Shown one piece after another: positions 24,401 through 43,504 of a stretch of DNA of 64,000 nt (positions are counted from its first letter, which is position 1; each line of letters starts with the position of its first letter). The DNA comes from Candidatus Bathyarchaeota archaeon (GTDB lineage Archaea; Thermoproteota; Bathyarchaeia; Bathyarchaeales; Bathycorpusculaceae): positions 128,001 through 192,000 of the forward strand of contig CAWHDT010000003.1 in NCBI GenBank assembly GCA_963828195.1, given 5' to 3'. A program made the position numbers and the translations under genes. The notes beneath the pieces were generated by a model that searched no databases, was not told the DNA's origin, and worked only from the letters and a program-made list of their open reading frames with translations.

Positions 24401-26359
24401 TTATTTGGTTACCTGTTTGCGTAGCTCGTTGTATGTTGCTTTTATGTCCTCGATTGAGCCTTCGTCTTCAATTGTCGATGTGTCGCCCAGCGGTGCTCCT
24501 GTAAGTACGGCTTTAAGTAGTCTGCGCATGATTTTGCCGCTTCGTGTCTTCGGCAGCTTGTTTACTATGATGATGGCGTCTGGTGTAGCTATTGGACCGA
24601 TTGTTGTTCGGATCTGTTTTATGAGGTCTGCACGAAGCTCGTCTGATGGGGTGAATCCGCCTCTGAGAACAACGAATGCTACTGGAACTTCGCCTTTCAC
24701 TGCGTCCTCCTTACCCATCACTGCTGCCTCAGAAACTGCTGGATGTGCAACTAACGCGCTTTCAAGCTCTACTGTTCCGATGCGGTGCCCAGCAACTTTT
24801 AGAACTTCGTCTGCTCTGCCAAGAAGCCAATAGTAGCCCTCTGGGTCTCGGACTGCGTAGTCGCCTGAGTAGTATATTCCTGGCCACCTGCCAAAGTATG
24901 TTTGTTTGAAGCGGTCAGCATCTTTCCAAATTGTCTGCAGCATTCCAGGCCACGGCGATTTGATTACGAGAACACCTTTAGTGCCTGCCTGTACTGGCTG
25001 TCCCTTCTCGTCGAAGATGTCAGTGTTGACTGCGGGCATCGGAAAAGTTGCGCTGCCAGGTTTCAAGGGTGTAAGTTCTATTCCTGCGGTGGGGGAAATC
25101 ATGAATCCGCCAGTTTCTGTTTGCCACCAAGTGTCAATTATCGGGAGTTTTTCTTTGCCGATTACGCGGTAGTACCATTTCCACGCTTCTGGGTTTATGG
25201 GTTCACCTACTGACCCCAGAATGCGCAGGGTGCTTAAGTCATGTTTTGTTACGCATTGTTCGCCGAATTTCATGAACATTCTAACGGCGGTTGGTGTGCC
25301 GTAGAGGATGGTTACGCCGTGTCTTTCAATCATGTCCCACCAGCGGTCTTGTCCAGGGTAATCAGGTGTGCCTTCGAAGAGGAACGCGGTAAGGCCCAGG
25401 CTTAATGGTGCATAAACGTTGTATGTGTGCCCCGTAATCCAGCCGATGTCTGCAACACACCAGTAAATGTCCTCGTCTGTTGGGTTGAAAGCCCACTTAA
25501 GCGTCCAATAAGCCCAAACAAGGTATCCGCCTATCCCATGTTGAACGCCTTTGGGTTTGCCCGTTGTTCCTGAAGTGTAGAGGATGAATAATGGGTCAGT
25601 TGATTTCATGCTTTCGGGTTCAACGTAGGCGTCTGCGCCCGCATTTGCAAGTGCATCATGGTACCAAACGTCTCTGCCTTCCTTCATCGTTACAGGTTGA
25701 CCAGTCCGCTTAACAACAATGACTTTTTCGATGCAAGGCATGTTTGGCAATCCTTTGTCTGCGTTGTCTTTGATGCCGATTGGTTTTCCTCTTCGGAAGG
25801 AACCGTCCGCTGTAACTAAGACTTTTGCGCCGCTGTCGTTAACTCTGTCAGCTAATGCTTCAGCACTGAACCCAGAGAATACAACTGTGTGGACTCCGCC
25901 GATTCTTGCCGTCGCAAGCAAAGTTATGGGCAGCTCAGGAATAACAGGCAGGAAAACTGCGACGCGGTCGCCTTTTTTGATGCCGAATTCCTTTAGTGCT
26001 TTTGCAAGTTTGTTTACTTCGCGGTAAAGTTGATAGTAACTGTAAGTTTTTACTTCGCCCATTTCGCCTTCCCAAATGTAGGCAAGCTTGTTTTTACGGT
26101 TGCCTTTAATATGCCTATCAAGGGCGTTGTAGGAGATGTTTAGTTCGCCGTCGGGGAACCATTTGTAAAACGGCGGGTTAGAATCATCAAGAACCTTGCT
26201 AAAAGGCTTAAACCAGTCGATGGCTTTTGCTTTTTCCTCCCAATATTCGTCCGGGTTCTTTATTGATTTCTCCCATTCTTTCTTGCGTTTTTCTCCACTG
26301 GAAAATTTTGCTCCGCTTGGACAAAACTTTTCATCAAAGGGTAAACTTGATTCTGACAT
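24401..26359 (-). CDS. acs: Acetyl-CoA synthetase (AMP-forming)
   Basis: YTSGTTGKPKG, DTWWQTETG, LPKTRSGKIMRR; start could be slightly upstream (26368). Confidence 0.96.
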   Translation of the reverse strand: MSESSLPFDEKFCPSGAKFSSGEKRKKEWEKSIKNPDEYWEEKAKAIDWFKPFSKVLDDSNPPFYKWFPDGELNISYNALDRHIKGNRKNKLAYIWEGEMGEVKTYSYYQLYREVNKLAKALKEFGIKKGDRVAVFLPVIPELPITLLATARIGGVHTVVFSGFSAEALADRVNDSGAKVLVTADGSFRRGKPIGIKDNADKGLPNMPCIEKVIVVKRTGQPVTMKEGRDVWYHDALANAGADAYVEPESMKSTDPLFILYTSGTTGKPKGVQHGIGGYLVWAYWTLKWAFNPTDEDIYWCVADIGWITGHTYNVYAPLSLGLTAFLFEGTPDYPGQDRWWDMIERHGVTILYGTPTAVRMFMKFGEQCVTKHDLSTLRILGSVGEPINPEAWKWYYRVIGKEKLPIIDTWWQTETGGFMISPTAGIELTPLKPGSATFPMPAVNTDIFDEKGQPVQAGTKGVLVIKSPWPGMLQTIWKDADRFKQTYFGRWPGIYYSGDYAVRDPEGYYWLLGRADEVLKVAGHRIGTVELESALVAHPAVSEAAVMGKEDAVKGEVPVAFVVLRGGFTPSDELRADLIKQIRTTIGPIATPDAIIIVNKLPKTRSGKIMRRLLKAVLTGAPLGDTSTIEDEGSIEDIKATYNELRKQVTK

Positions 26360-26454
26360 TTTGCTCAACCTAATTTGCTGAGAATGATAAACTCTGAGAA
26401 TATAAGTTTTTAGTATCTAATTTATTTAGAAAAATAAAAAGAGAGTTAGTTGTT

Positions 26455-36414: not shown

Positions 36415-38691
36415 ATGTACGAGTGTGCGACGGAAATGTTGTCTCGTTCAGCCAAAGTTAAATTGAAAGCGATTTTGATTATTGACATAATTATTATAGG
36501 CGGAGCTGCAGGAGCCTATCTTTATCTTCAAAATCGGGGACTGATCGCAAATGCAGCTAAACCAGCTACTTTTACTATAACAGACCTCACTATCGATCCT
36601 CCAGTAGCAAACGTGACAGATGCCATAGAAATCTCAGTCAACGTAACAAACGTGGGCGCTTTAGAAGGCAACGCAACAATAAATCTTGAAATTAACAATG
36701 CAACAAAAAACACCGAGAACGTAACGCTTACAGGCGGAGGATCTCAACTTGTCCAGTTTACCGATATAGAAACAACGCCGGGGAATTATACTGTGCAAAT
36801 TGGTGACTTGACGGGAATGTTTACAATTAATCCTGCTCCGCCAGGGTCAAGTAAGATAATATTGTCTAACCTGTTTTTTTCGCCGTATGAAGTCTGGCCA
36901 AATCAACCTGTTAACGTGACGGCAACCGCTGAAAACCCGACTGACCAGCCTGACAGCCTTGCTGTTACGGTTTCGCTTGATGGCACAGCTGTGGAAACTA
37001 ATGTTATTTCGGTAAATGCAAGCACGAGCGAAATTGTAGAATTTACTGTTAATGCTACAACGTTAGGATGGCACACTGTTAATCTGAACACATTAAGCGG
37101 GCAATTCTCAGTTGTTAAGACCGGTTACCACACGCTTTTAATTAACAGGTCTGGCGGAGGCTCCACACCTTTACCCTTCACCTTAAACGGAGCAGGCTAT
37201 AACACGCCTTTCAGTCAACTTATGCCCGTGGGGCAATACACCATAACTGTCCCAAGTCCATTTAGCGTTGGAACCGGGGTGCTGGCGTTTTCTTATTGGG
37301 AAGATGGCGAAACTAATCCGACGCGAACTTTCACGTTAAATCAAGATATGATAGTGATTGCAACGTACACTTTGATTAGTGGATATGCCTCTTGTCCGTC
37401 GCTTTATACTTGGAATGGAACAGCCTACTCTTACGTCACTGACGTTTCAAATGCCGGTTGGTTGGGATACACCGGGTACATGACAAGTAGCGGCAGCATT
37501 GTGAATATAGGCGGAAACCCCTGGGACAACGTGAAACTTAACCAAAACCAGATGGCGTTAACAGACATTGACGGCACCAACTGCTATGACATGACTCTTT
37601 TCCAGCAAGCCGATGAACTCTTCTACTTAGACGCGGCATATTTGCTAGTTGTTGATCACCCAGCAGGCACCAACGTCTACTCAAGTGTAACTAATTATCT
37701 TAACCAAGGGTTAAATGATCAAATCTACACGGTAAACCAAACTACCACAACATCCCCTCTCAGCGCGACTTATGTTTGGGGACCAAACGGCACCAACGCT
37801 CAAGGCGAAAATGTCTTGCCTCAAATTTCGAAGCTTGATGGTGTTTTCACGCCTGGAAACAGCGGAGATCTTAGCCCCTCCTGGAATAACATCTACTTTA
37901 ATCAGTTAACAATGGACTTAGGAAACCTATCCTCGGCAAACACAATCAAACTTGAAATAAACGGAATTGTCGATTGGGGTTCACCAGTTGACTATGACAA
38001 TTGGATAGCCAGCTTTAAGGCGGCAGCTGCACAGGGACTGGTAGCTACTGGAACACAAATAACGCCGCCCGCTTACATGGAAATTAAATATCCAAACGGC
38101 ACCTGGGTTCCTGTTCCGCAGAGTAGGCAGATGCCAATCCCGTCGGATTCTAACCCAAGAACTTTCGTGGTGGATTTAACTGGGCTATTCCCAGCTGGTT
38201 TAAGCGATTACCAGATCAAAATTGTCAATTTCTGGAATGTAACCTACGACTACATCGGAGTTGACACCAGCACGCAACAGAACATAACAATTCAAAAAAT
38301 CAGCCCAATCGCAACCCTAAGCCAAGTGTGGACAACCAACTCGACTTCTTCAGGAAACTTTACACAATATGGAAACGTAACGGCGCTGCTTCAAAGCGCA
38401 GACAACCAATATGTAATCGGACGCCAAGGCGACGAAGTTACTATGGAGTTTCCCGTCAGCAATTTAACGGCTCCTGCCCCAGGCATGGTTAGAGACTACT
38501 TCTTCTTCGTAGCATGCTGGTTTAAAGATCCGCCCGGAGGTTGGGGCTACGGATTCACCTTTACAGTAGACCCAATGCCTTTCCTCGGAATGACCGGATT
38601 TCCATACTCGACAGCTGAAAGCTACCCCTACACCGCAGCGAACCTGGCGTACCTGAAAGAGTACAATACGCGGGTAATTCCTACTTCATAA
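36415..38691 (+). CDS. Membrane-anchored extracellular protein: two CARDB/Ig-like domains plus C-terminal SCPxLYTWNG domain
   Basis: N-terminal TM; ISVNVTNVG and VNVTATAEN CARDB-like repeats; ASCPSLYTWNG...RDYFFFVACWFKD..VDPMPF.GM..FPY; start may be ATG 36436. Confidence 0.75.
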   Translation: MYECATEMLSRSAKVKLKAILIIDIIIIGGAAGAYLYLQNRGLIANAAKPATFTITDLTIDPPVANVTDAIEISVNVTNVGALEGNATINLEINNATKNTENVTLTGGGSQLVQFTDIETTPGNYTVQIGDLTGMFTINPAPPGSSKIILSNLFFSPYEVWPNQPVNVTATAENPTDQPDSLAVTVSLDGTAVETNVISVNASTSEIVEFTVNATTLGWHTVNLNTLSGQFSVVKTGYHTLLINRSGGGSTPLPFTLNGAGYNTPFSQLMPVGQYTITVPSPFSVGTGVLAFSYWEDGETNPTRTFTLNQDMIVIATYTLISGYASCPSLYTWNGTAYSYVTDVSNAGWLGYTGYMTSSGSIVNIGGNPWDNVKLNQNQMALTDIDGTNCYDMTLFQQADELFYLDAAYLLVVDHPAGTNVYSSVTNYLNQGLNDQIYTVNQTTTTSPLSATYVWGPNGTNAQGENVLPQISKLDGVFTPGNSGDLSPSWNNIYFNQLTMDLGNLSSANTIKLEINGIVDWGSPVDYDNWIASFKAAAAQGLVATGTQITPPAYMEIKYPNGTWVPVPQSRQMPIPSDSNPRTFVVDLTGLFPAGLSDYQIKIVNFWNVTYDYIGVDTSTQQNITIQKISPIATLSQVWTTNSTSSGNFTQYGNVTALLQSADNQYVIGRQGDEVTMEFPVSNLTAPAPGMVRDYFFFVACWFKDPPGGWGYGFTFTVDPMPFLGMTGFPYSTAESYPYTAANLAYLKEYNTRVIPTS

Positions 38692-38952: not shown

Positions 38953-39933
38953 ATGATTTGGGAAGTCATAGGAGACATATTAAGAATTTCAGTGCTTGGG
39001 GGGCTCGGAGCAGCGGGGATACTTGCCATTTTAATATGGAAAAGGAACAAAACTGTAAGAGTAACCTACATTCGGCTGGTCATTCAGGCGGTCGCTTTTG
39101 CAGCCATATTTTATATATTCAGTTATACTTTTCCGCTTATCTACGCTTTAATCGCCATTTTTGCGATGACTATAGTTTTAGGTCGGTTGTTCTGCGGTTG
39201 GTTTTGCCCATTCGGCTTTGTTATGGACCTAATTGTCCTGCTTAGAAAAGCACTCAAAATTCGTTACATAAACTTTTCTGACAAACTAAACATGATTCTA
39301 CACCAATCAAGATACGTAATACTGCTATTTTTCCTCCTTGTGCCCGCCATCTTATGGTATATCGCACCGCTTCCAAACATCAATTTCGCCTTCGATTTGG
39401 CGCAAATTTTGGGAGGTCCCTTCCATCCATATACTGTTCTGATTGATCCGTTGACACCTCTGATTGTTCCATATGCTGGTCCACTGGTTGTTAGCCATAT
39501 TAATTTCAGTTACCCGTACGTTCACGATATATTCAATTATTCGGGTCAAAATCTTGGTGAAATAATAGCTATTGCTTTTGTTGGTTTAACGTTGGTAGGT
39601 TCATTTTTTGTAAGGCGCGTTTGGTGCCGCTTCTGTCCAACAGGCGCTTCGTTTGGAGTCATGAATAGGTTTAAGGGGTTCAATTGGGCACCTCTGCTTC
39701 ATCTAGATAAAGATGAGGAAAAATGCACGAAGTGCGGCGTTTGCAAGAGAGTGTGTCAATCGCAAGTCCCCGACGTGTATGAACAGAAGGGTGGAAGAAT
39801 AAACACTTCAATGTGTATGTTATGCTTGCGGTGTGCTGAAATGTGTCCATACGAAGATGCCTTGAAATTGAAGTTGGGAAGTAAAACAGTGTTCAAATCG
39901 AGAAACTGGCTAGAGCCATCAACATGTGAGTGA
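38953..39933 (+). CDS. NapH/MauN-like membrane polyferredoxin
   Basis: TM helices; GRLFCGWFCPFG, WCRFCPTG, CTKCGVCKRVC, CMLCLRCAEMCP. Confidence 0.9.
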   Translation: MIWEVIGDILRISVLGGLGAAGILAILIWKRNKTVRVTYIRLVIQAVAFAAIFYIFSYTFPLIYALIAIFAMTIVLGRLFCGWFCPFGFVMDLIVLLRKALKIRYINFSDKLNMILHQSRYVILLFFLLVPAILWYIAPLPNINFAFDLAQILGGPFHPYTVLIDPLTPLIVPYAGPLVVSHINFSYPYVHDIFNYSGQNLGEIIAIAFVGLTLVGSFFVRRVWCRFCPTGASFGVMNRFKGFNWAPLLHLDKDEEKCTKCGVCKRVCQSQVPDVYEQKGGRINTSMCMLCLRCAEMCPYEDALKLKLGSKTVFKSRNWLEPSTCE

Positions 39934-41273
39934 AGAAATCCATGAAAAGCGAAAAAACCGAAAAAAAATATACGCCTGAAATCTCAACCAGAGAACTTGA
40001 GGAACTTAGAGACTCCATCAAAACTGCATCTCAGAAGGTAATCTCCGAGAACATAGAGCGCATGAAAAAAGCCGACCCTAACAGACCTGAAGCCATGAAG
40101 TATTTTGACGAAATCGCAAACGTGTTTGGCAAACGAGAAACTGAGATCGCAGCTGAGAAAGCGAAAGGAAAGAAAGTGATCGGCTACATGTGCCTGTTTG
40201 CTCCCACAGAGTTAATTTTGGCGGCAGATGCTATTCCAGTCAGAGTAAACTCAGGTTGGTACGATACTTCTAAAATCGGCGACAGAGTGGTGCCAGTTGA
40301 AGTGTGCCCCGTTATTCGCTCAACGATAGGCGCACAAATGATTGGGCTTTCGCCTTTTCTTGAGTTAAGCGACGCCTTGATCAGCGTTTTAACCTGTGAC
40401 GGCATGACTAAACTGAGCGAAATCTTAAGTGACTACAAGACCATTTGGGATATGAACATTCCACGAATTAAAGATTCAGACCACTCCCTTCGCTTCTGGA
40501 ACGACGAAATAAGACTCATGAAAACGCAGATTGAGAAGTTCACCGGCAACAAAATCACGCGGAAAAACTTGAAAGCAGCCATCGAGCAGACGCAGAAGGC
40601 GACAAAAGCTTTTCGCCGCCTGCAGGACCTGCGGAAGGGTCAACCAGTAATTATGGGCAGAGATGCAATGCTGGTTAATCAAGCGTACCTGTGGGATGAT
40701 AAAGCCCGGTGGACAGAGAAAACTGAAGCATTATGCGATGAACTGGAAAAGAGGGTCGAGCGGAAAGATTGGGTTTGTCCTCCTGATACGCCTAGGGTTC
40801 TGGTGACGGGTACGCCGATGTTTTGGCCTGATAACTGGAAGCTTCCAACTTTGGTTGAAGAAGCGAATCCAAAGGGCATCATCGTTGCTGATGAGCTTTG
40901 TTCAGGCGAAAGAATTCTTATCGACCCTGTCGGCATCGACGAATGGAACATGGATGACATGCTTAACGCTATCGGAGAGCGGCATCTTATGGCTTCTACT
41001 TGTCCCTGCTTCACTTCAGGCGACGGAAACGAGGACAGAATCAACTGGCTGCTAAACAAGGTTAAGGAATGGAATGTTCAAGGCGCTATCTATTATGTAG
41101 TGCGGGGCTGCATGCTGTATGCGATGGAGTACAACAGAATTAAAAAAGCGCTTGACAAAATAAATGTCCCAACATACTATCTTGACACAGAATACACCAG
41201 GGAAGATGTCGGGCAAATGAAGACGCGTGTTGAAGCATTCCTCGAGATGTTAACGGCGAGGGTTGACTTTTAG
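39930..41273 (+). CDS. Double-cubane-cluster-type anaerobic reductase (2-hydroxyacyl-CoA dehydratase/HgdAB superfamily)
   Basis: RPEAMKYFD N-extension; Cys motifs in both halves: GYMC, EVCP, LTCDG, ELCSG, TCPCF, RGCM; TRVEAFLEML. Confidence 0.8.
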   Translation: MKKSMKSEKTEKKYTPEISTRELEELRDSIKTASQKVISENIERMKKADPNRPEAMKYFDEIANVFGKRETEIAAEKAKGKKVIGYMCLFAPTELILAADAIPVRVNSGWYDTSKIGDRVVPVEVCPVIRSTIGAQMIGLSPFLELSDALISVLTCDGMTKLSEILSDYKTIWDMNIPRIKDSDHSLRFWNDEIRLMKTQIEKFTGNKITRKNLKAAIEQTQKATKAFRRLQDLRKGQPVIMGRDAMLVNQAYLWDDKARWTEKTEALCDELEKRVERKDWVCPPDTPRVLVTGTPMFWPDNWKLPTLVEEANPKGIIVADELCSGERILIDPVGIDEWNMDDMLNAIGERHLMASTCPCFTSGDGNEDRINWLLNKVKEWNVQGAIYYVVRGCMLYAMEYNRIKKALDKINVPTYYLDTEYTREDVGQMKTRVEAFLEMLTARVDF

Positions 41274-41282
41274 GGTGGATTT

Positions 41283-42068
41283 ATGATCACTGTCGGGATG
41301 GATTTAGGCACTCAACGTGTAAAGACAGTTGTGTTAAAAGACAATACCGTCGTTTCGAGAGGGCAAGCCTTCTCAGGGTTTGACCCTTCCAAAGCCACGG
41401 AAGAAGCAGTGAACCAAGCATTAAAAGACGCAAACTTGAAGATTTCTGATGTTGCCTATTTTGTCGCTACCGGTTCAGCTATGGAAATGGCGCCTTATTC
41501 TAACGGCACCGTAAGCATGATGGGTGCTGACGCTAAAGCAGGAGTTCACCTTTTTCCGAAAGCCCGAACAATAATTGATGTGGGCGCTGAAGAAGCCCGA
41601 GCCGTTAAATGCGACGAAAAAGCCATTATGGTTGATTTTATCGTTAACGAACGCTGTGCTGCCGGCGCCGGAGCATTCATAGAGGCGATGGCTCGGGCGC
41701 TGGAGGTGAAACTGGAGGAGATGGGTCCGCTTTCACTTAAGGCTGAGCGCGCTAGCCCCATAAACGCTTCCTGCGTCATCTTCGGCGAATCCGACGTGGT
41801 TTCGCTTATTCACCGCCAAGAATCCAAGCCAGAAATAGCCCGAGCGGTTTTTGACGCGATGGCAGATCGAATATCCTCCATGATCCACAGGTTAGGCATT
41901 AACCCAGATGTGGTTTTGATCGGCGGAGTCGCGAAGGATGTTGGTTTTGTTGCCTCTCTAAAGAGAAAGCTTGGGGTTGACGTGTTGATTCCCGATTTTC
42001 CCGATTACGCGGGCGCTTTAGGTGCAGCTCTTGTTGCAGCCGCCCGAGCGAAGGAGGGTCAGAAATGA
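41283..42068 (+). CDS. BadF/BadG/BcrA/BcrD-family ATPase, BzdP-like subunit
   Basis: GMDLGT, ATGSA, DVGAEEARAV, NERCAAGAG, NASCVIFGES. Confidence 0.85.
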   Translation: MITVGMDLGTQRVKTVVLKDNTVVSRGQAFSGFDPSKATEEAVNQALKDANLKISDVAYFVATGSAMEMAPYSNGTVSMMGADAKAGVHLFPKARTIIDVGAEEARAVKCDEKAIMVDFIVNERCAAGAGAFIEAMARALEVKLEEMGPLSLKAERASPINASCVIFGESDVVSLIHRQESKPEIARAVFDAMADRISSMIHRLGINPDVVLIGGVAKDVGFVASLKRKLGVDVLIPDFPDYAGALGAALVAAARAKEGQK

Positions 42069-42976
42069 AGGAGCCCAGCAGCGTTAAAGAGGAAATTGAG
42101 TTTTGGCGTTGGCGCGAGTACAACCGCGTAGTGCCTGGCAAAAAGTGGTGCAGCAAAGACTTAATCACTGCAGGTGTTGACGTGGGCTCTGTGGGTTCTA
42201 AAGCAGCTATAATGGTGAATGGCGAAGCGTACTCTTGGGGGATAACGCGAACTGGCTCCAACAGTCCCGAGAGTGCAACCAAAGCTTTGAACCTTGCATT
42301 AGAAGGAACCGGACTTAAGGGAAGCGACCTAAAATACATCGTAGGCACAGGCTATGGACGAGTAAATGTTCCCATGGCTAACAAGGCGATTACGGAGATT
42401 GCTTGCCACGCTAAAGGCGCCAACTTTATTTGGGGACCAAGCGTGCGCACCGTGCTGGATGTCGGCGGTCAAGACATCAAAGCTATTCGCTGCGATGAAA
42501 CGGGTAGAGTGGTTTCTTTTTTGATGAATGACAAATGCGCGGCGGGAACTGGCAGAGGCATGGAGGTGTTTGCTGATTTGCTAAAGATTCCAATTGAGGA
42601 AATCGGCGCTATCTCACTGATGGTTGATGTCGAGCCGCCGCCGGTAAGTTGCACCTGTGTGGCTTTTGCGAAAACTGAGGCTATGGGGCTTTTGCGTAAA
42701 GGCTGGTCTAAAGAGAAGGTTTTGGCTGCTTACACGCGGGCTATGGCTGTCCGCATGGCTAACCTGATTAACAGAGTGGGCTTAGAGAAGGAGCTTGTTG
42801 TCACAGGTGGTCAATCCAAGAACATCGGGATCGTGAGCAGAATCGAAGTTAATTTGGGCGTAAAGTGTTTGCCGATGCCTAACTGGCGCGACAATGGTTT
42901 AGATCCGATGGTTGCGGGTGCGTTTGGCGCCGCGCTTTTCGGCAAAGCCCTCTACGAGAAGGCACAGAAATCTTAA
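42065..42976 (+). CDS. BadF/BadG/BcrA/BcrD-family ATPase, BzdQ-like subunit
   Basis: EFWRW N-terminus, GVDVGSVGSK, GTGYGR, EIACHAKGA, DVGGQD, MNDKCAAGTG, SCTCVAFA. Confidence 0.85.
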   Translation: MKEPSSVKEEIEFWRWREYNRVVPGKKWCSKDLITAGVDVGSVGSKAAIMVNGEAYSWGITRTGSNSPESATKALNLALEGTGLKGSDLKYIVGTGYGRVNVPMANKAITEIACHAKGANFIWGPSVRTVLDVGGQDIKAIRCDETGRVVSFLMNDKCAAGTGRGMEVFADLLKIPIEEIGAISLMVDVEPPPVSCTCVAFAKTEAMGLLRKGWSKEKVLAAYTRAMAVRMANLINRVGLEKELVVTGGQSKNIGIVSRIEVNLGVKCLPMPNWRDNGLDPMVAGAFGAALFGKALYEKAQKS

Positions 42977-42992
42977 CTGGAGGTCAAAAGCC

Positions 42993-43280
42993 ATCATCAC
43001 GCACTACGGCTACAGCGACGGTTCAGGCGAATACTACATAACCATCGACACTGACAAGTGCAGCGGCTGCGGCAAATGCGTCAAGCAGTGCCCACAATCT
43101 GCGCTTCAGCTGGAAACGATGTTTATTGACCTGGAAGATAAAACCGTCGTCTCAGTTGCGGAGGAGCATCGGAGAAAAATAAAGTACACTTGCTCATCAT
43201 GCAAACCCGAAACCAACACGGCTCCATGCGTTATAGCTTGCAAAGCCAAAGCAGTCAACTGCACGTGGAAACCGCAATAA
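42993..43280 (+). CDS. 2x[4Fe-4S] ferredoxin of the type found with bzd-like reductases; probable ATC start
   Basis: GGAGGT at 42979-42984, then (M)ITHYGYSDGSGEYYITIDTDKCSGCGKCVKQCP...CSSC..PCVIAC. Confidence 0.8.
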   Translation: MITHYGYSDGSGEYYITIDTDKCSGCGKCVKQCPQSALQLETMFIDLEDKTVVSVAEEHRRKIKYTCSSCKPETNTAPCVIACKAKAVNCTWKPQ

Positions 43281-43504
43281 CAGGCATTGCAGCGAGATTT
43301 GGGTGATTTTGCACAGTACAAGGTTTTTTCTATGTCGCTGTGCTGTTTAGACCTAAAATTTTAGGCTGGCATTCAAATAGGAGGATGGCATTGCAGAGCG
43401 GCTTGCTGATTGCATAATTTTAAATATTTGTTTTGTCTTAAGTCTTATTTAAAGCGATTTTAACTTGTTCACTTAAGTTCCAACCAAGAGGCGCAAAAAG
43501 TAAA

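What the first reader, a model, noticed from the sequence alone, without database searches (positions are those of the whole stretch)
38953..43280. Hybrid ATP-driven low-potential reductase: membrane polyferredoxin + double-cubane protein + BzdP/BzdQ-type ATPase heterodimer + ferredoxin
Seen: five tightly coupled genes with overlaps or gaps of 16 bp or less. The 447-aa protein has cluster-type Cys motifs in both halves (Cx37Cx29C in the N-half, then ELC, CPC, GC) and an RP..M.YFD extension. As I recall, this is the pattern of the [8Fe-9S] double-cubane cluster protein (DCCP) of Carboxydothermus, which reduces acetylene/azide/hydrazine in vitro using a homodimeric ATPase and has no known physiological substrate. 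Here it is paired with two different ATPase subunits resembling BzdP and BzdQ of class I benzoyl-CoA reductase, plus a YGYxDGSG ferredoxin. There is no BzdN/BzdO catalytic pair and no other aromatic-degradation gene in the window. A NapH-like membrane Fe-S protein leads the operon. Inference: an undescribed membrane-linked electron path (membrane carrier to ferredoxin to ATP-dependent activator to double cubane) for a hard-to-reduce substrate, and a possible evolutionary link between DCCP and aryl-CoA reductases.
Basis: partly seen in the sequence, partly recalled or inferred. Interest (0 to 1): 0.85.

Follow-up and report, generated by a model that had tools for sequence, protein, structure and literature searches.

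The report
Membrane-docked ATP-driven double-cubane reductase operon
This is a five-gene operon of the sediment and peat archaea Bathyarchaeia that encodes an ATP-powered, very-low-potential iron-sulfur reductase of unknown substrate tied to a membrane iron-sulfur protein; it matters because such genes are usually read as a benzene-ring reductase, which the sequence does not support.

Summary
Five same-strand genes at 38953-43280 overlap or lie 16 nt or less apart.

- **g2 (447 aa)** belongs to the double-cubane cluster protein (DCCP) family, not BzdN/O or HgdA/B. All six cluster-ligand Cys are invariant. The seventh, non-ligand Cys is Asn.
- **g3 and g4** are two different ATPases. g4 is BzdQ-like and canonical. 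g3 is not specifically BzdP-like: it has lost the phosphate-binding and catalytic-base residues in nearly all orthologs.
- **g5** is a 2x[4Fe-4S] ferredoxin that starts at a non-canonical ATC codon.
- **g1** is NapH-like. Adjacency in distant relatives, one fused protein and a controlled complex prediction (0.65 against 0.00) place it directly on g2.

The order g1-g5 is kept in most of 80 Bathyarchaeia species loci. Seven of nine genomes with this DCCP type have no second HGD-D gene, and the genome lacks benzoyl-CoA pathway genes.

I read it as donor module (ferredoxin, asymmetric ATPase pair) plus acceptor module (DCCP docked on the membrane protein). The substrate and the direction of electron flow at g1 are unknown.

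It is a new variant of a known kind. The DCCP-to-BCR evolutionary link is already in print, and this scan noted the same operon type twice before on other DNA.

The parts
38953..39933 (+). g1: NapH-like membrane Fe-S protein, 326 aa. It has about five TM helices, CX3CP (C81-C85-P86) and CX2CP (C225-C228-P229) motifs, and a C-terminal 2x[4Fe-4S] domain predicted to be cytoplasmic.
   Evidence: Pfam Fer4_5 54.8 bits plus Fer4 families. TIGR02163 NapH/MauN 77.3 bits, below its cut-off of 213. Hydropathy and K/R distribution. All 14 Cys and both Pro are invariant in 45 sequences.
39930..41273 (+). g2: double-cubane cluster protein (DCCP) family, 447 aa. Many relatives are 443 aa, so ATG 39942 may be the real start. 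Six cluster-ligand Cys at 88, 126, 156, 324, 358 and 394. Asn107 stands where DCCP has its seventh Cys.
41283..42068 (+). g3: archerase-type ATPase subunit, 261 aa. The two cluster Cys (C125, C164) are kept. The phosphate-binding site is degenerate (GTQRVK, DVGAEEAR) and the catalytic-base Glu is replaced by Met.
   Evidence: Pfam BcrAD_BadFG 145 bits. Alignments to five solved ATPases. Ortholog counts. Residue roles from PMC9351452.
42065..42976 (+). g4: canonical archerase ATPase subunit, BzdQ-like, 303 aa, with a roughly 33-aa N-terminal extension.
   Evidence: TIGR03192 bzdQ 352.4 bits (cut-off 380.2), covering model positions 6-292. MbdQ 9GAI_D 190.9 bits. Motifs DVGGQD[IV]K and ITEIAC kept in 102 of 102 orthologs.
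42993..43280 (+). g5: 2x[4Fe-4S] ferredoxin, 95 aa, with CxxCxxCxxxCP and CxxCx8CxxxC motifs and a conserved N-terminal ITHYGYSDGSG. It probably starts at ATC 42993, 8 nt after GGAGGT. The ORF as listed starts at TTG 42912.
36415..38691 (+). Upstream 758-aa protein with an N-terminal TM helix and no Pfam match. It is separated from g1 by 261 nt. Whether it belongs to the system is open.
   Evidence: Present upstream in 60 of 80 genome loci. Absent from sister-type loci. No Pfam family.
43324..43329 (+). T6 run 44 nt after the g5 stop, a possible archaeal transcription end.
   Evidence: Read directly from the sequence printed. Not tested.

Best explanation
The operon encodes a two-module, ATP-driven, very-low-potential reductase.

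**Donor module.** The ferredoxin g5 reduces a [4Fe-4S] cluster held between g3 and g4. g4 hydrolyses ATP. g3 keeps the cluster ligands but has lost the residues that bind phosphate and activate water. The pair is therefore an asymmetric 'one-active-site' archerase.

**Acceptor module.** A g2 homodimer carries one [8Fe-9S] double cubane per subunit. It receives the energised electron as in the solved DCCP:DCCP-R complex. It is docked, at a different surface, on the cytoplasmic 2x[4Fe-4S] domain of the membrane protein g1.

The substrate is not benzoyl-CoA or a 2-hydroxyacyl-CoA. It is either a small molecule reduced at the double cubane, or something reached through g1.

**Shown:** family membership, ligand conservation, gene linkage, absence of a partner subunit, degeneracy of g3.
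**Inferred:** cluster type, electron order, homodimer, g1-g2 contact, ATP stoichiometry.
For: **g2 is a DCCP**
- NF040772 330.7 bits against at most 100.8 for the BCR and dehydratase models.
- 6ENO/7YYL about 275 bits against BzdN 92.8.
- Model pLDDT 92. Best fold match 6ENO, TMt 0.93 over 427 columns.
- The six ligand Cys are invariant in 49 sequences of 29-91% identity. The motif comes from PMC7317905.
- Q429, which matches DCCP Q408 (the residue that touches the ATPase), is nearly invariant.

**No partner subunit**
- Of 101 sampled genomes of the class, 9 hold this type at 68% identity or more. Seven of those nine have a single HGD-D gene.
- Five of five tested have exactly two ATPase genes, both adjacent.

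**Asymmetric ATPase**
- g3 orthologs carry D[VI]GAEEAR in 111 of 118, and Met at the E69 position in 116 of 118.
- g4 orthologs carry DVGGQD[IV]K and Glu in 102 of 102.
- All five solved relatives have GGQ(D/T)xK.

**Operon conservation** (80 loci)
- g2 and g3: 80 of 80.
- g4: 77 of 80. The other three are contig ends.
- g5: 76 of 80.
- g1 in place: 74 of 80.

**g1 goes with g2**
- A NapH-like gene lies directly upstream of the DCCP gene in 15 of 24 sister-type metagenome loci (28-48% identity) that have at least 1 kb of upstream sequence.
- G055 has the same pair.
- One representative protein, P0205, fuses the two.
- In L093 the two ATPases plus the ferredoxin sit apart from the NapH-DCCP pair.
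- Complex prediction: ipSAE 0.65 (three runs 0.63-0.68), best of 3 controls 0.00. That mark was reached by 116 of 157 solved complexes and 2 of 215 mismatched pairs. Runs agree in at least 91% of contacts and partner pLDDT is at least 68. My own alignments were used, so the counts hold only roughly.
- The interface joins g1's first Fer4 motif (255-267) to g2 332-379, next to ligand C358. It lies away from the ATPase-docking residues.

**Not a benzoyl-CoA pathway**
- No Oah and no dienoyl-CoA hydratase or crotonase match. Benzoate-CoA ligase gives only sub-cut-off ligases, in a genome that is 96% complete.
Against: - g2 scores below the curated NF040772 cut-off (330.7 against 350) and lacks the seventh conserved Cys.
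- No cofactor, activity or expression data exist.
- g1 is missing at the locus in L007, L017 and L065 and is displaced in L063, so the core can exist without it next door.
- Nine of 24 sister-type loci lack an upstream NapH-like gene.
- The complex model has no clusters and no membrane, and it used my own alignments.
- g3 may still bind nucleotide. Degeneracy is inferred from sequence only.
- The related genomes are kin, so the conservation counts are not independent.
- G000 and G090 also hold a canonical DCCP that has no ATPase of its own. The ATPase pair may therefore serve two acceptors.
Confidence: 0.72

Rival explanations
1. g1 takes electrons from a membrane carrier (a quinol or similar) and hands them to ferredoxin g5, which feeds the ATPase pair and then the double cubane. 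In this reading g1 is the inlet.
For: - g1 resembles NapH/MauN quinol-dehydrogenase-type proteins.
- It leads the operon.
- In L093 a NosR-like FMN_bind/Fer4_5 protein and ApbE follow the DCCP gene, which hints at transmembrane electron traffic.
Against: - Across relatives g1 stays with the DCCP, while the ferredoxin stays with the ATPases.
- The complex model puts g1 on g2.
- No MqnA/D and no crotonase-type MenB were found in the 96%-complete genome. I found no sign of menaquinone synthesis, though the search was not exhaustive.
- Going uphill from quinol to ferredoxin level would need its own energy input.
Confidence: 0.15
2. It is a class I benzoyl-CoA (aryl-CoA) reductase, or the remnant of one. 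This is how papers that list BCR genes in Bathyarchaeia annotate such genes.
For: - g4 nearly reaches the BzdQ cut-off (352.4 against 380.2).
- BzdN also holds an [8Fe-9S] cluster.
- JGI names for homologs read 'BcrC/BadD/HgdB'.
- Papers infer aromatic degradation from such genes.
Against: - There is no BzdO/BcrB-type catalytic subunit. Seven of nine genomes have only one HGD-D gene.
- g2 scores 100.8 against a cut-off of 453.8 for BzdN.
- No Oah or Dch was found, and no ligase scored above cut-off.
- Benzoate inhibited growth of B. tardum, which has a 'BcrACD' cluster lacking BcrB.
Confidence: 0.04
3. It is an ATP-dependent reductive activator or maturase for another metalloenzyme, for example a corrinoid methyltransferase or another Fe-S enzyme, rather than a catabolic reductase. 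g2 would act as an electron relay only.
For: - In BzdN the double cubane is a relay or store, not the active site.
- G000 holds a second, canonical DCCP without its own ATPase.
- The B. tardum paper discusses an activating enzyme for its O-demethylase (passage cut off).
Against: - No candidate client gene is conserved beside the operon. The downstream genes are found in 0 of 80 loci.
- The conserved partner is the membrane protein g1.
Confidence: 0.09

Closest known systems
DCCP / DCCP-R of Carboxydothermus hydrogenoformans (PDB 6ENO, 7YYL, 7YZM; Jeoung and Dobbek)
   Same: - The fold matches over the whole chain, including the N-terminal RP..M.YFD extension (TMt 0.93).
- All six double-cubane Cys ligands are present.
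- The ATPase-contact Gln is kept.
- ATPase genes lie adjacent.
- The physiological substrate is unknown in both.
   Different: - About 35-45% identity. It lies in a separate clade from the canonical type.
- The seventh Cys is Asn.
- It has two different ATPase subunits, one degenerate, instead of a homodimer.
- It has a dedicated ferredoxin.
- It has a NapH-like membrane partner.
Class I benzoyl-CoA reductase of Bzd/Mbd type (BzdNOPQ, MbdONPQ; PDB 8S02, 9GAI)
   Same: - A heterodimeric ATPase module with a BzdQ-like subunit.
- A subunit with an [8Fe-9S] cluster.
- Ferredoxin as the donor.
   Different: - There is no BzdO-type catalytic subunit.
- Both MbdP and MbdQ keep the GGQxxK motif, but g3 does not.
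- No CoA-ester pathway genes were found.
- It has a membrane partner.
NapH / MauN / NosH-NosR family membrane Fe-S proteins
   Same: - TM helices followed by Cys-Pro motifs.
- A cytoplasmic 2x[4Fe-4S] domain.
   Different: - Its score is far below the family cut-off (77 against 213).
- The second motif is CX2CP.
- No Nap, Nos or Mau partner genes lie in the operon.
- Its partner is a DCCP.
2-hydroxyacyl-CoA dehydratases with activator (HadBC/HadI, HgdAB/HgdC)
   Same: - An HGD-D fold.
- An archerase ATPase with a bridging cluster.
   Different: - The dehydratases are alpha/beta heterodimers with three-Cys [4Fe-4S] sites and a homodimeric activator.
- g2 scores 92.7 against a cut-off of 700 for HadC.

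Membership tests
DCCP (NCBIfam NF040772, double-cubane-cluster-containing anaerobic reductase) | HGD-D fold matching the solved DCCP over its full length | tested here: met
   Pfam HGD-D 312 bits. Foldseek 6ENO TMq 0.87, TMt 0.93.
DCCP (NCBIfam NF040772, double-cubane-cluster-containing anaerobic reductase) | Six Cys that ligate the [8Fe-9S] cluster | tested here: met
   C88, C126, C156, C324, C358 and C394 are invariant in 49 sequences. The motif is from PMC7317905.
DCCP (NCBIfam NF040772, double-cubane-cluster-containing anaerobic reductase) | Seventh, non-ligand Cys (Cys94 of DCCP_Ch) of the 7-Cys motif | tested here: not met
   Asn107 in the window and in 3 of 4 Bathyarchaeia homologs aligned; Ser in the fourth. 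Of the 100 family rows, 63 have the Cys.
DCCP (NCBIfam NF040772, double-cubane-cluster-containing anaerobic reductase) | Score over the curated cut-off (350 bits) | tested here: not met
   330.7 bits. The genome's other paralog scores 500.7.
DCCP (NCBIfam NF040772, double-cubane-cluster-containing anaerobic reductase) | Cognate ASKHA-type ATPase encoded alongside | tested here: met
   Two ATPase genes are adjacent, in 77 of 80 loci with both. The described systems have one.
DCCP (NCBIfam NF040772, double-cubane-cluster-containing anaerobic reductase) | Binds an [8Fe-9S] cluster and reduces acetylene, azide or hydrazine with ATP | not testable with these tools
   This needs anaerobic biochemistry.
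Class I benzoyl-CoA reductase, Bzd type | BzdN plus BzdO catalytic heterodimer | tested here: not met
   Seven of nine genomes have one HGD-D gene only. g2 scores 100.8 (BzdN) and 27.1 (BzdO), far below both cut-offs.
Class I benzoyl-CoA reductase, Bzd type | BzdQ and BzdP ATPase subunits | tested here: inconclusive
   g4 scores 352.4 against a cut-off of 380.2 for BzdQ. g3 has no specific match: BcrD 155 against 313, MbdP 109 bits.
Class I benzoyl-CoA reductase, Bzd type | Downstream benzoyl-CoA pathway (Dch, Oah) and benzoate-CoA ligase in the genome | tested here: not met
   No match for TIGR03200 or TIGR03189. TIGR02262 gives at best 275 bits against a cut-off of 375. The genome is 96% complete.
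2-hydroxyacyl-CoA dehydratase | Alpha/beta pair of HGD-D subunits with three-Cys [4Fe-4S] sites | tested here: not met
   A single gene with six cluster Cys. HadC 92.7 against 700; HadB 23.7 against 750.
NapH/MauN family (TIGR02163) | Score over cut-off, two CX3CP motifs and two [4Fe-4S] motifs | tested here: not met
   77.3 bits against a cut-off of 213.05. One CX3CP motif and one CX2CP motif. Both Fer4 motifs are present.

The most novel reading that the evidence does not exclude
The double cubane of g2 would be a relay, as in BzdN, not the catalytic site. ATP-energised electrons, well below ferredoxin potential, would pass from it into the Fe-S clusters and Cys-Pro motifs of the NapH-like protein g1. 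There they would reduce a membrane-bound or extracytoplasmic substrate. This would be a membrane 'super-reductase' driven by a one-active-site ATPase pair, a kind of ATP-driven electron export not described for any archerase system.
Probability: 0.22. Interest if true: 0.85.

Novelty: new variant of a known kind. Interest (0 to 1): 0.62.

Why it matters
- **An open question becomes testable.** The physiological role of double-cubane proteins has been open since 2018. This version is single-copy, tightly linked to a membrane partner and a ferredoxin, and common in Bathyarchaeia of peat, soil, sediment, hot springs and termite gut. That gives a defined system in which to look for the substrate.
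- **A possible change in energy cost.** A degenerate ATPase subunit would mean one ATP site per transferred electron. That changes the energy budget of such reductions.
- **A correction to the literature.** The finding warns against counting these genes as benzoyl-CoA reductase when inferring aromatic degradation by Bathyarchaeia.

Tried and rejected
- **RNA runs.** None was listed for the operon, so nothing can be said about expression.
- **Source names of sister proteins.** The listing of cluster members could not be made because the database is switched off. The taxonomy of the sister-type metagenome loci therefore stays unknown.
- **Apparent NapH-DCCP fusion ORFs in L087 and L090.** These are over-long ORFs in high-GC DNA. 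The two matches lie in different frames. Only P0205 stands as a fusion, and it is a single predicted protein.
- **Unknown proteins upstream of the NapH-like gene in L093 and L139.** They are not alike.
- **In-frame TGA reported beside the G091 DCCP.** It lies outside the gene, so there is no selenocysteine.
- **Protein atlas.** It added only cluster names.
- **Heterodimer of g2 with the canonical DCCP on contig C7.** Rejected as a rule, because 7 of 9 genomes lack that paralog.
- **Origin of the two-ATPase state.** The ATPase tree does not show whether the pairs in L086-L091 share one origin with g3/g4. Only the L093-type pair does.
- **Literature searches for a description of this system.**
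  - 'double-cubane cluster': 20 papers.
  - 'double cubane' with archaea and NapH, at least two of three terms: none of the 15 listed holds 'double cubane'.
  - 'Bathyarchae' plus 'double-cubane': 1 paper, on MCR activation.
  - None describes this operon.
  - Supplements were not read.


Full report
**The observation**

One search lists five ORFs on the + strand:
- g1 38953-39933
- g2 39930-41273
- g3 41283-42068
- g4 42065-42976
- a ferredoxin ORF ending at 43280

The junctions are -4, +9, -4 and +16 nt. The last value holds only if the ferredoxin starts at ATC 42993. No ATG, GTG or TTG follows the g4 stop in that frame, and a GGAGGT lies 8 nt upstream of the ATC.

In 74 orthologous loci the codon before the conserved ITHYGY is canonical in 41 (TTG 20, ATG 15, GTG 6). 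It is ATT, ATA, ATC, GTT, GTC or TTT in 33. In 26 loci the ORF holds no canonical start at all.

**What the proteins are**

*g2.* It is best matched by the double-cubane model NF040772: 330.7 bits against a cut-off of 350. The next best are BzdN at 100.8 and HadC at 92.7. Among solved structures it matches C. hydrogenoformans DCCP at about 275 bits and BzdN at 92.8. An AlphaFold model built from 49 sequences (pLDDT 92) superposes on 6ENO at TMt 0.93 over 427 columns, N-terminal helices included.

The review PMC7317905 (passages read) defines a 7-Cys motif of which six Cys ligate the [8Fe-9S] cluster. All six are invariant in my 49-sequence alignment, which spans 29-91% identity. The seventh, non-ligand Cys is Asn107 here.

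In a quick tree of 100 family rows, the Bathyarchaeia clade has 100% support. It sits in a 9-row clade (98%) with four 7-Cys representatives that are at most 45% identical to it.

*g4.* It is a canonical archerase. It falls just below the BzdQ cut-off (352.4 against 380.2) and shares the model's N-terminal extension.

*g3.* It is a generic family member and is not specifically like MbdP.

*g1.* It has Fer4_5 and two Fer4 motifs and is only weakly NapH-like. Hydropathy and charge place its Cys-Pro motifs and its Fe-S domain in the cytoplasm.

**Is there a hidden partner subunit?**

The own genome (96% complete) has two HGD-D genes and two ATPase genes. The second HGD-D gene, on contig C7, is a canonical 7-Cys DCCP scoring 500.7 bits. 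It belongs to another major clade and has no ATPase of its own.

In a sample of 101 genomes of the class, 9 hold the window type at 68% identity or more. They fall in two families of the order. Seven of the nine have no other HGD-D gene. Five of five tested have exactly two ATPase genes, both next to g2.

So the window type does not need a BzdO/HgdA-like partner.

**Conservation**

A genome scan found relatives in 177 species genomes. The best 80 loci are almost all labelled Bathyarchaeia.

| Gene | Present in the 80 loci |
|---|---|
| g2 | 80 |
| g3 | 80 |
| g4 | 77 (3 contig ends) |
| g5 | 76 (4 contig ends) |
| g1, in place | 74 |
| 758-aa upstream gene | 60 |
| downstream genes | 0 |

g1 is absent inside L007, L017 and L065, is cut off in L034 and L080, and lies elsewhere in L063. 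These genomes are kin, so the counts are not independent.

**Beyond Bathyarchaeia**

A metagenome scan seeded with the sister representatives gave 80 loci. Of 24 sister-type loci (28-48% identity to g2) with at least 1 kb of upstream sequence, 15 have a NapH-like gene directly upstream.

Of 18 sister-type loci with at least 2 kb of downstream sequence, 4 have two ATPase genes, 6 have one and 8 have none.

In L093 the order is ATPase, ATPase, ferredoxin, about 3 kb of other genes, NapH-like, DCCP, ApbE, and a FMN_bind/Fer4_5 protein. A Bathyarchaeia genome of another family, G055, has NapH-like plus DCCP with no ATPase in the next 2.9 kb. One representative protein, P0205, fuses the two domains.

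So the conserved core is the NapH-DCCP pair, and the ferredoxin goes with the ATPases.

**The ATPase pair is asymmetric**

PMC9351452 (passages read) states the following about DCCP-R:
- S9-N11 and Q92-D94 bind the phosphates.
- G92/Q93 and D94/K96 start the hydrogen-bond networks to the cluster.
- E69 acts as a base. The E69Q and E69N variants are about tenfold slower.
- DCCP Q408 touches Q93.

By the alignments, g3 has T-Q-R, A-E-E and R at these sites, and Met at the E69 position. All five solved relatives (MbdQ, MbdP, HadI, HgdC, DCCP-R) keep GGQ(D/T)xK.

| Feature | g3 orthologs | g4 orthologs |
|---|---|---|
| Phosphate-2 motif | D[VI]GAEEAR in 111 of 118 | DVGGQD[IV]K in 102 of 102 |
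| E69 position | Met in 116 of 118 | Glu in 102 of 102 |

Of 26 ATPases from sister-type loci, 24 have Glu and 2 have Asp at that position. Both subunits keep the two cluster Cys.

The L093 pair is orthologous to g3 and g4 (99% and 100% support), and its first member already has GAEEAR. The first ATPases of L086-L091 have GGQG[VL]R but form their own clade.

I infer one working ATP site per cluster. This is sequence inference only.

**Does g1 touch g2?**

A complex prediction scored ipSAE 0.63, 0.65 and 0.68 in three runs, against 0.00 for each of three controls. It used g2 with a 49-row alignment and g1 with 44 rows.
- The mark was reached by 116 of 157 solved complexes and 2 of 215 mismatched pairs.
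- The runs agree in at least 91% of their contacts, and partner pLDDT is at least 68.
- My own alignments were used, so the calibration holds only roughly.

I know of no solved NapH-DCCP complex, which argues against a pass from memory. That point is my recollection, not a test.

The interface joins g1 99-110, 255-267 (first Fer4 motif) and 297-299 to g2 332-379, next to ligand C358. The residues that contact DCCP-R in the solved complex map to g2 420-429. The two sites therefore appear separate.

**Not an aromatic pathway**

No Oah and no dienoyl-CoA hydratase (indeed no crotonase match) were found. The benzoate-CoA ligase model matches only sub-cut-off AMP-ligases.

Papers do read such genes as BCR:
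- PMC9241837 and PMC12694404 (passages read).
- PMC10477458 reports 'BcrACD' without BcrB in Bathyarchaeum tardum and says benzoate inhibited growth. I did not verify that this cluster is the same type.

**Mechanism and its limits**

I commit to this order: ferredoxin g5, then the g3/g4 cluster with ATP hydrolysed at g4, then the double cubane of a g2 homodimer held on g1.

Whether g1 is an outlet, a second inlet or an anchor is open. I found no MqnA/D and no MenB-type gene, which weakens a quinol-dehydrogenase role. The genome has three Fer4_5 proteins in all.

**Novelty**

PMC11971306 (passages read) already shows an [8Fe-9S] cluster in BzdN and proposes DCCP as the ancestor of BCR and the dehydratases. 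That part of the finding is known.

My searches found no paper that describes any of the following:
- a DCCP with a heterodimeric, half-degenerate ATPase;
- a DCCP with a NapH-like partner;
- a DCCP in Bathyarchaeia.

This scan noted the same operon type twice before on other genomes. Those notes agree with what I found. I could test the claim about other archaeal phyla only as far as unnamed metagenome contigs allow.

Noticed in passing
window 42977-42995, and loci L006-L085 at the matching place: The ferredoxin gene appears to start at a non-canonical codon. The window has ATC. Across 74 orthologous loci, 33 have ATT, ATA, ATC, GTT, GTC or TTT at the homologous start position. In 26 of them no ATG, GTG or TTG exists anywhere in the ORF upstream.
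   Followed up: partly
G000 contig C7:115634-118727 (L005:9135-12228): The genome's second, canonical DCCP (500.7 bits, all seven Cys) sits between a DsrE/TusD-like gene and selD. It lies beside a ModE-like gene, molybdate ABC transporter genes and MobB/MobA-like genes, and it has no ATPase of its own. In G091 selD, a DCCP and one ATPase are adjacent. This fits the DCCP-SelD association reported in the preprint 10.1101/2022.07.06.499078 (passages read).
   Followed up: partly
window 36415-38691: A 758-aa protein with an N-terminal TM helix, many N-x-S/T sites and no Pfam match lies upstream of g1. It is present in 60 of 80 Bathyarchaeia loci but not in sister-type loci. I did not test that.
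   Followed up: no
L093:7236-9965: In the metagenome locus whose ATPase pair is orthologous to g3/g4 and whose 483-aa DCCP lies in the same 9-row clade as the window's, an ApbE flavin transferase and a FMN_bind plus Fer4_5 (NosR-like) membrane protein follow the DCCP gene. This hints at an extracytoplasmic flavinylated electron path.
   Followed up: no
window 24401-26368 (-): An AMP-forming acyl-CoA ligase-like gene scores 225 bits to the benzoate-CoA ligase model, below its cut-off of 375. It lies 12.6 kb upstream of the operon and is not linked to it.
   Followed up: no
L042 and L048: Two loci with the Bathyarchaeia-type operon carry other labels in their records: 'Methanocella sp.' and 'Nitrososphaerota'. 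This may reflect binning or naming rather than biology.
   Followed up: no
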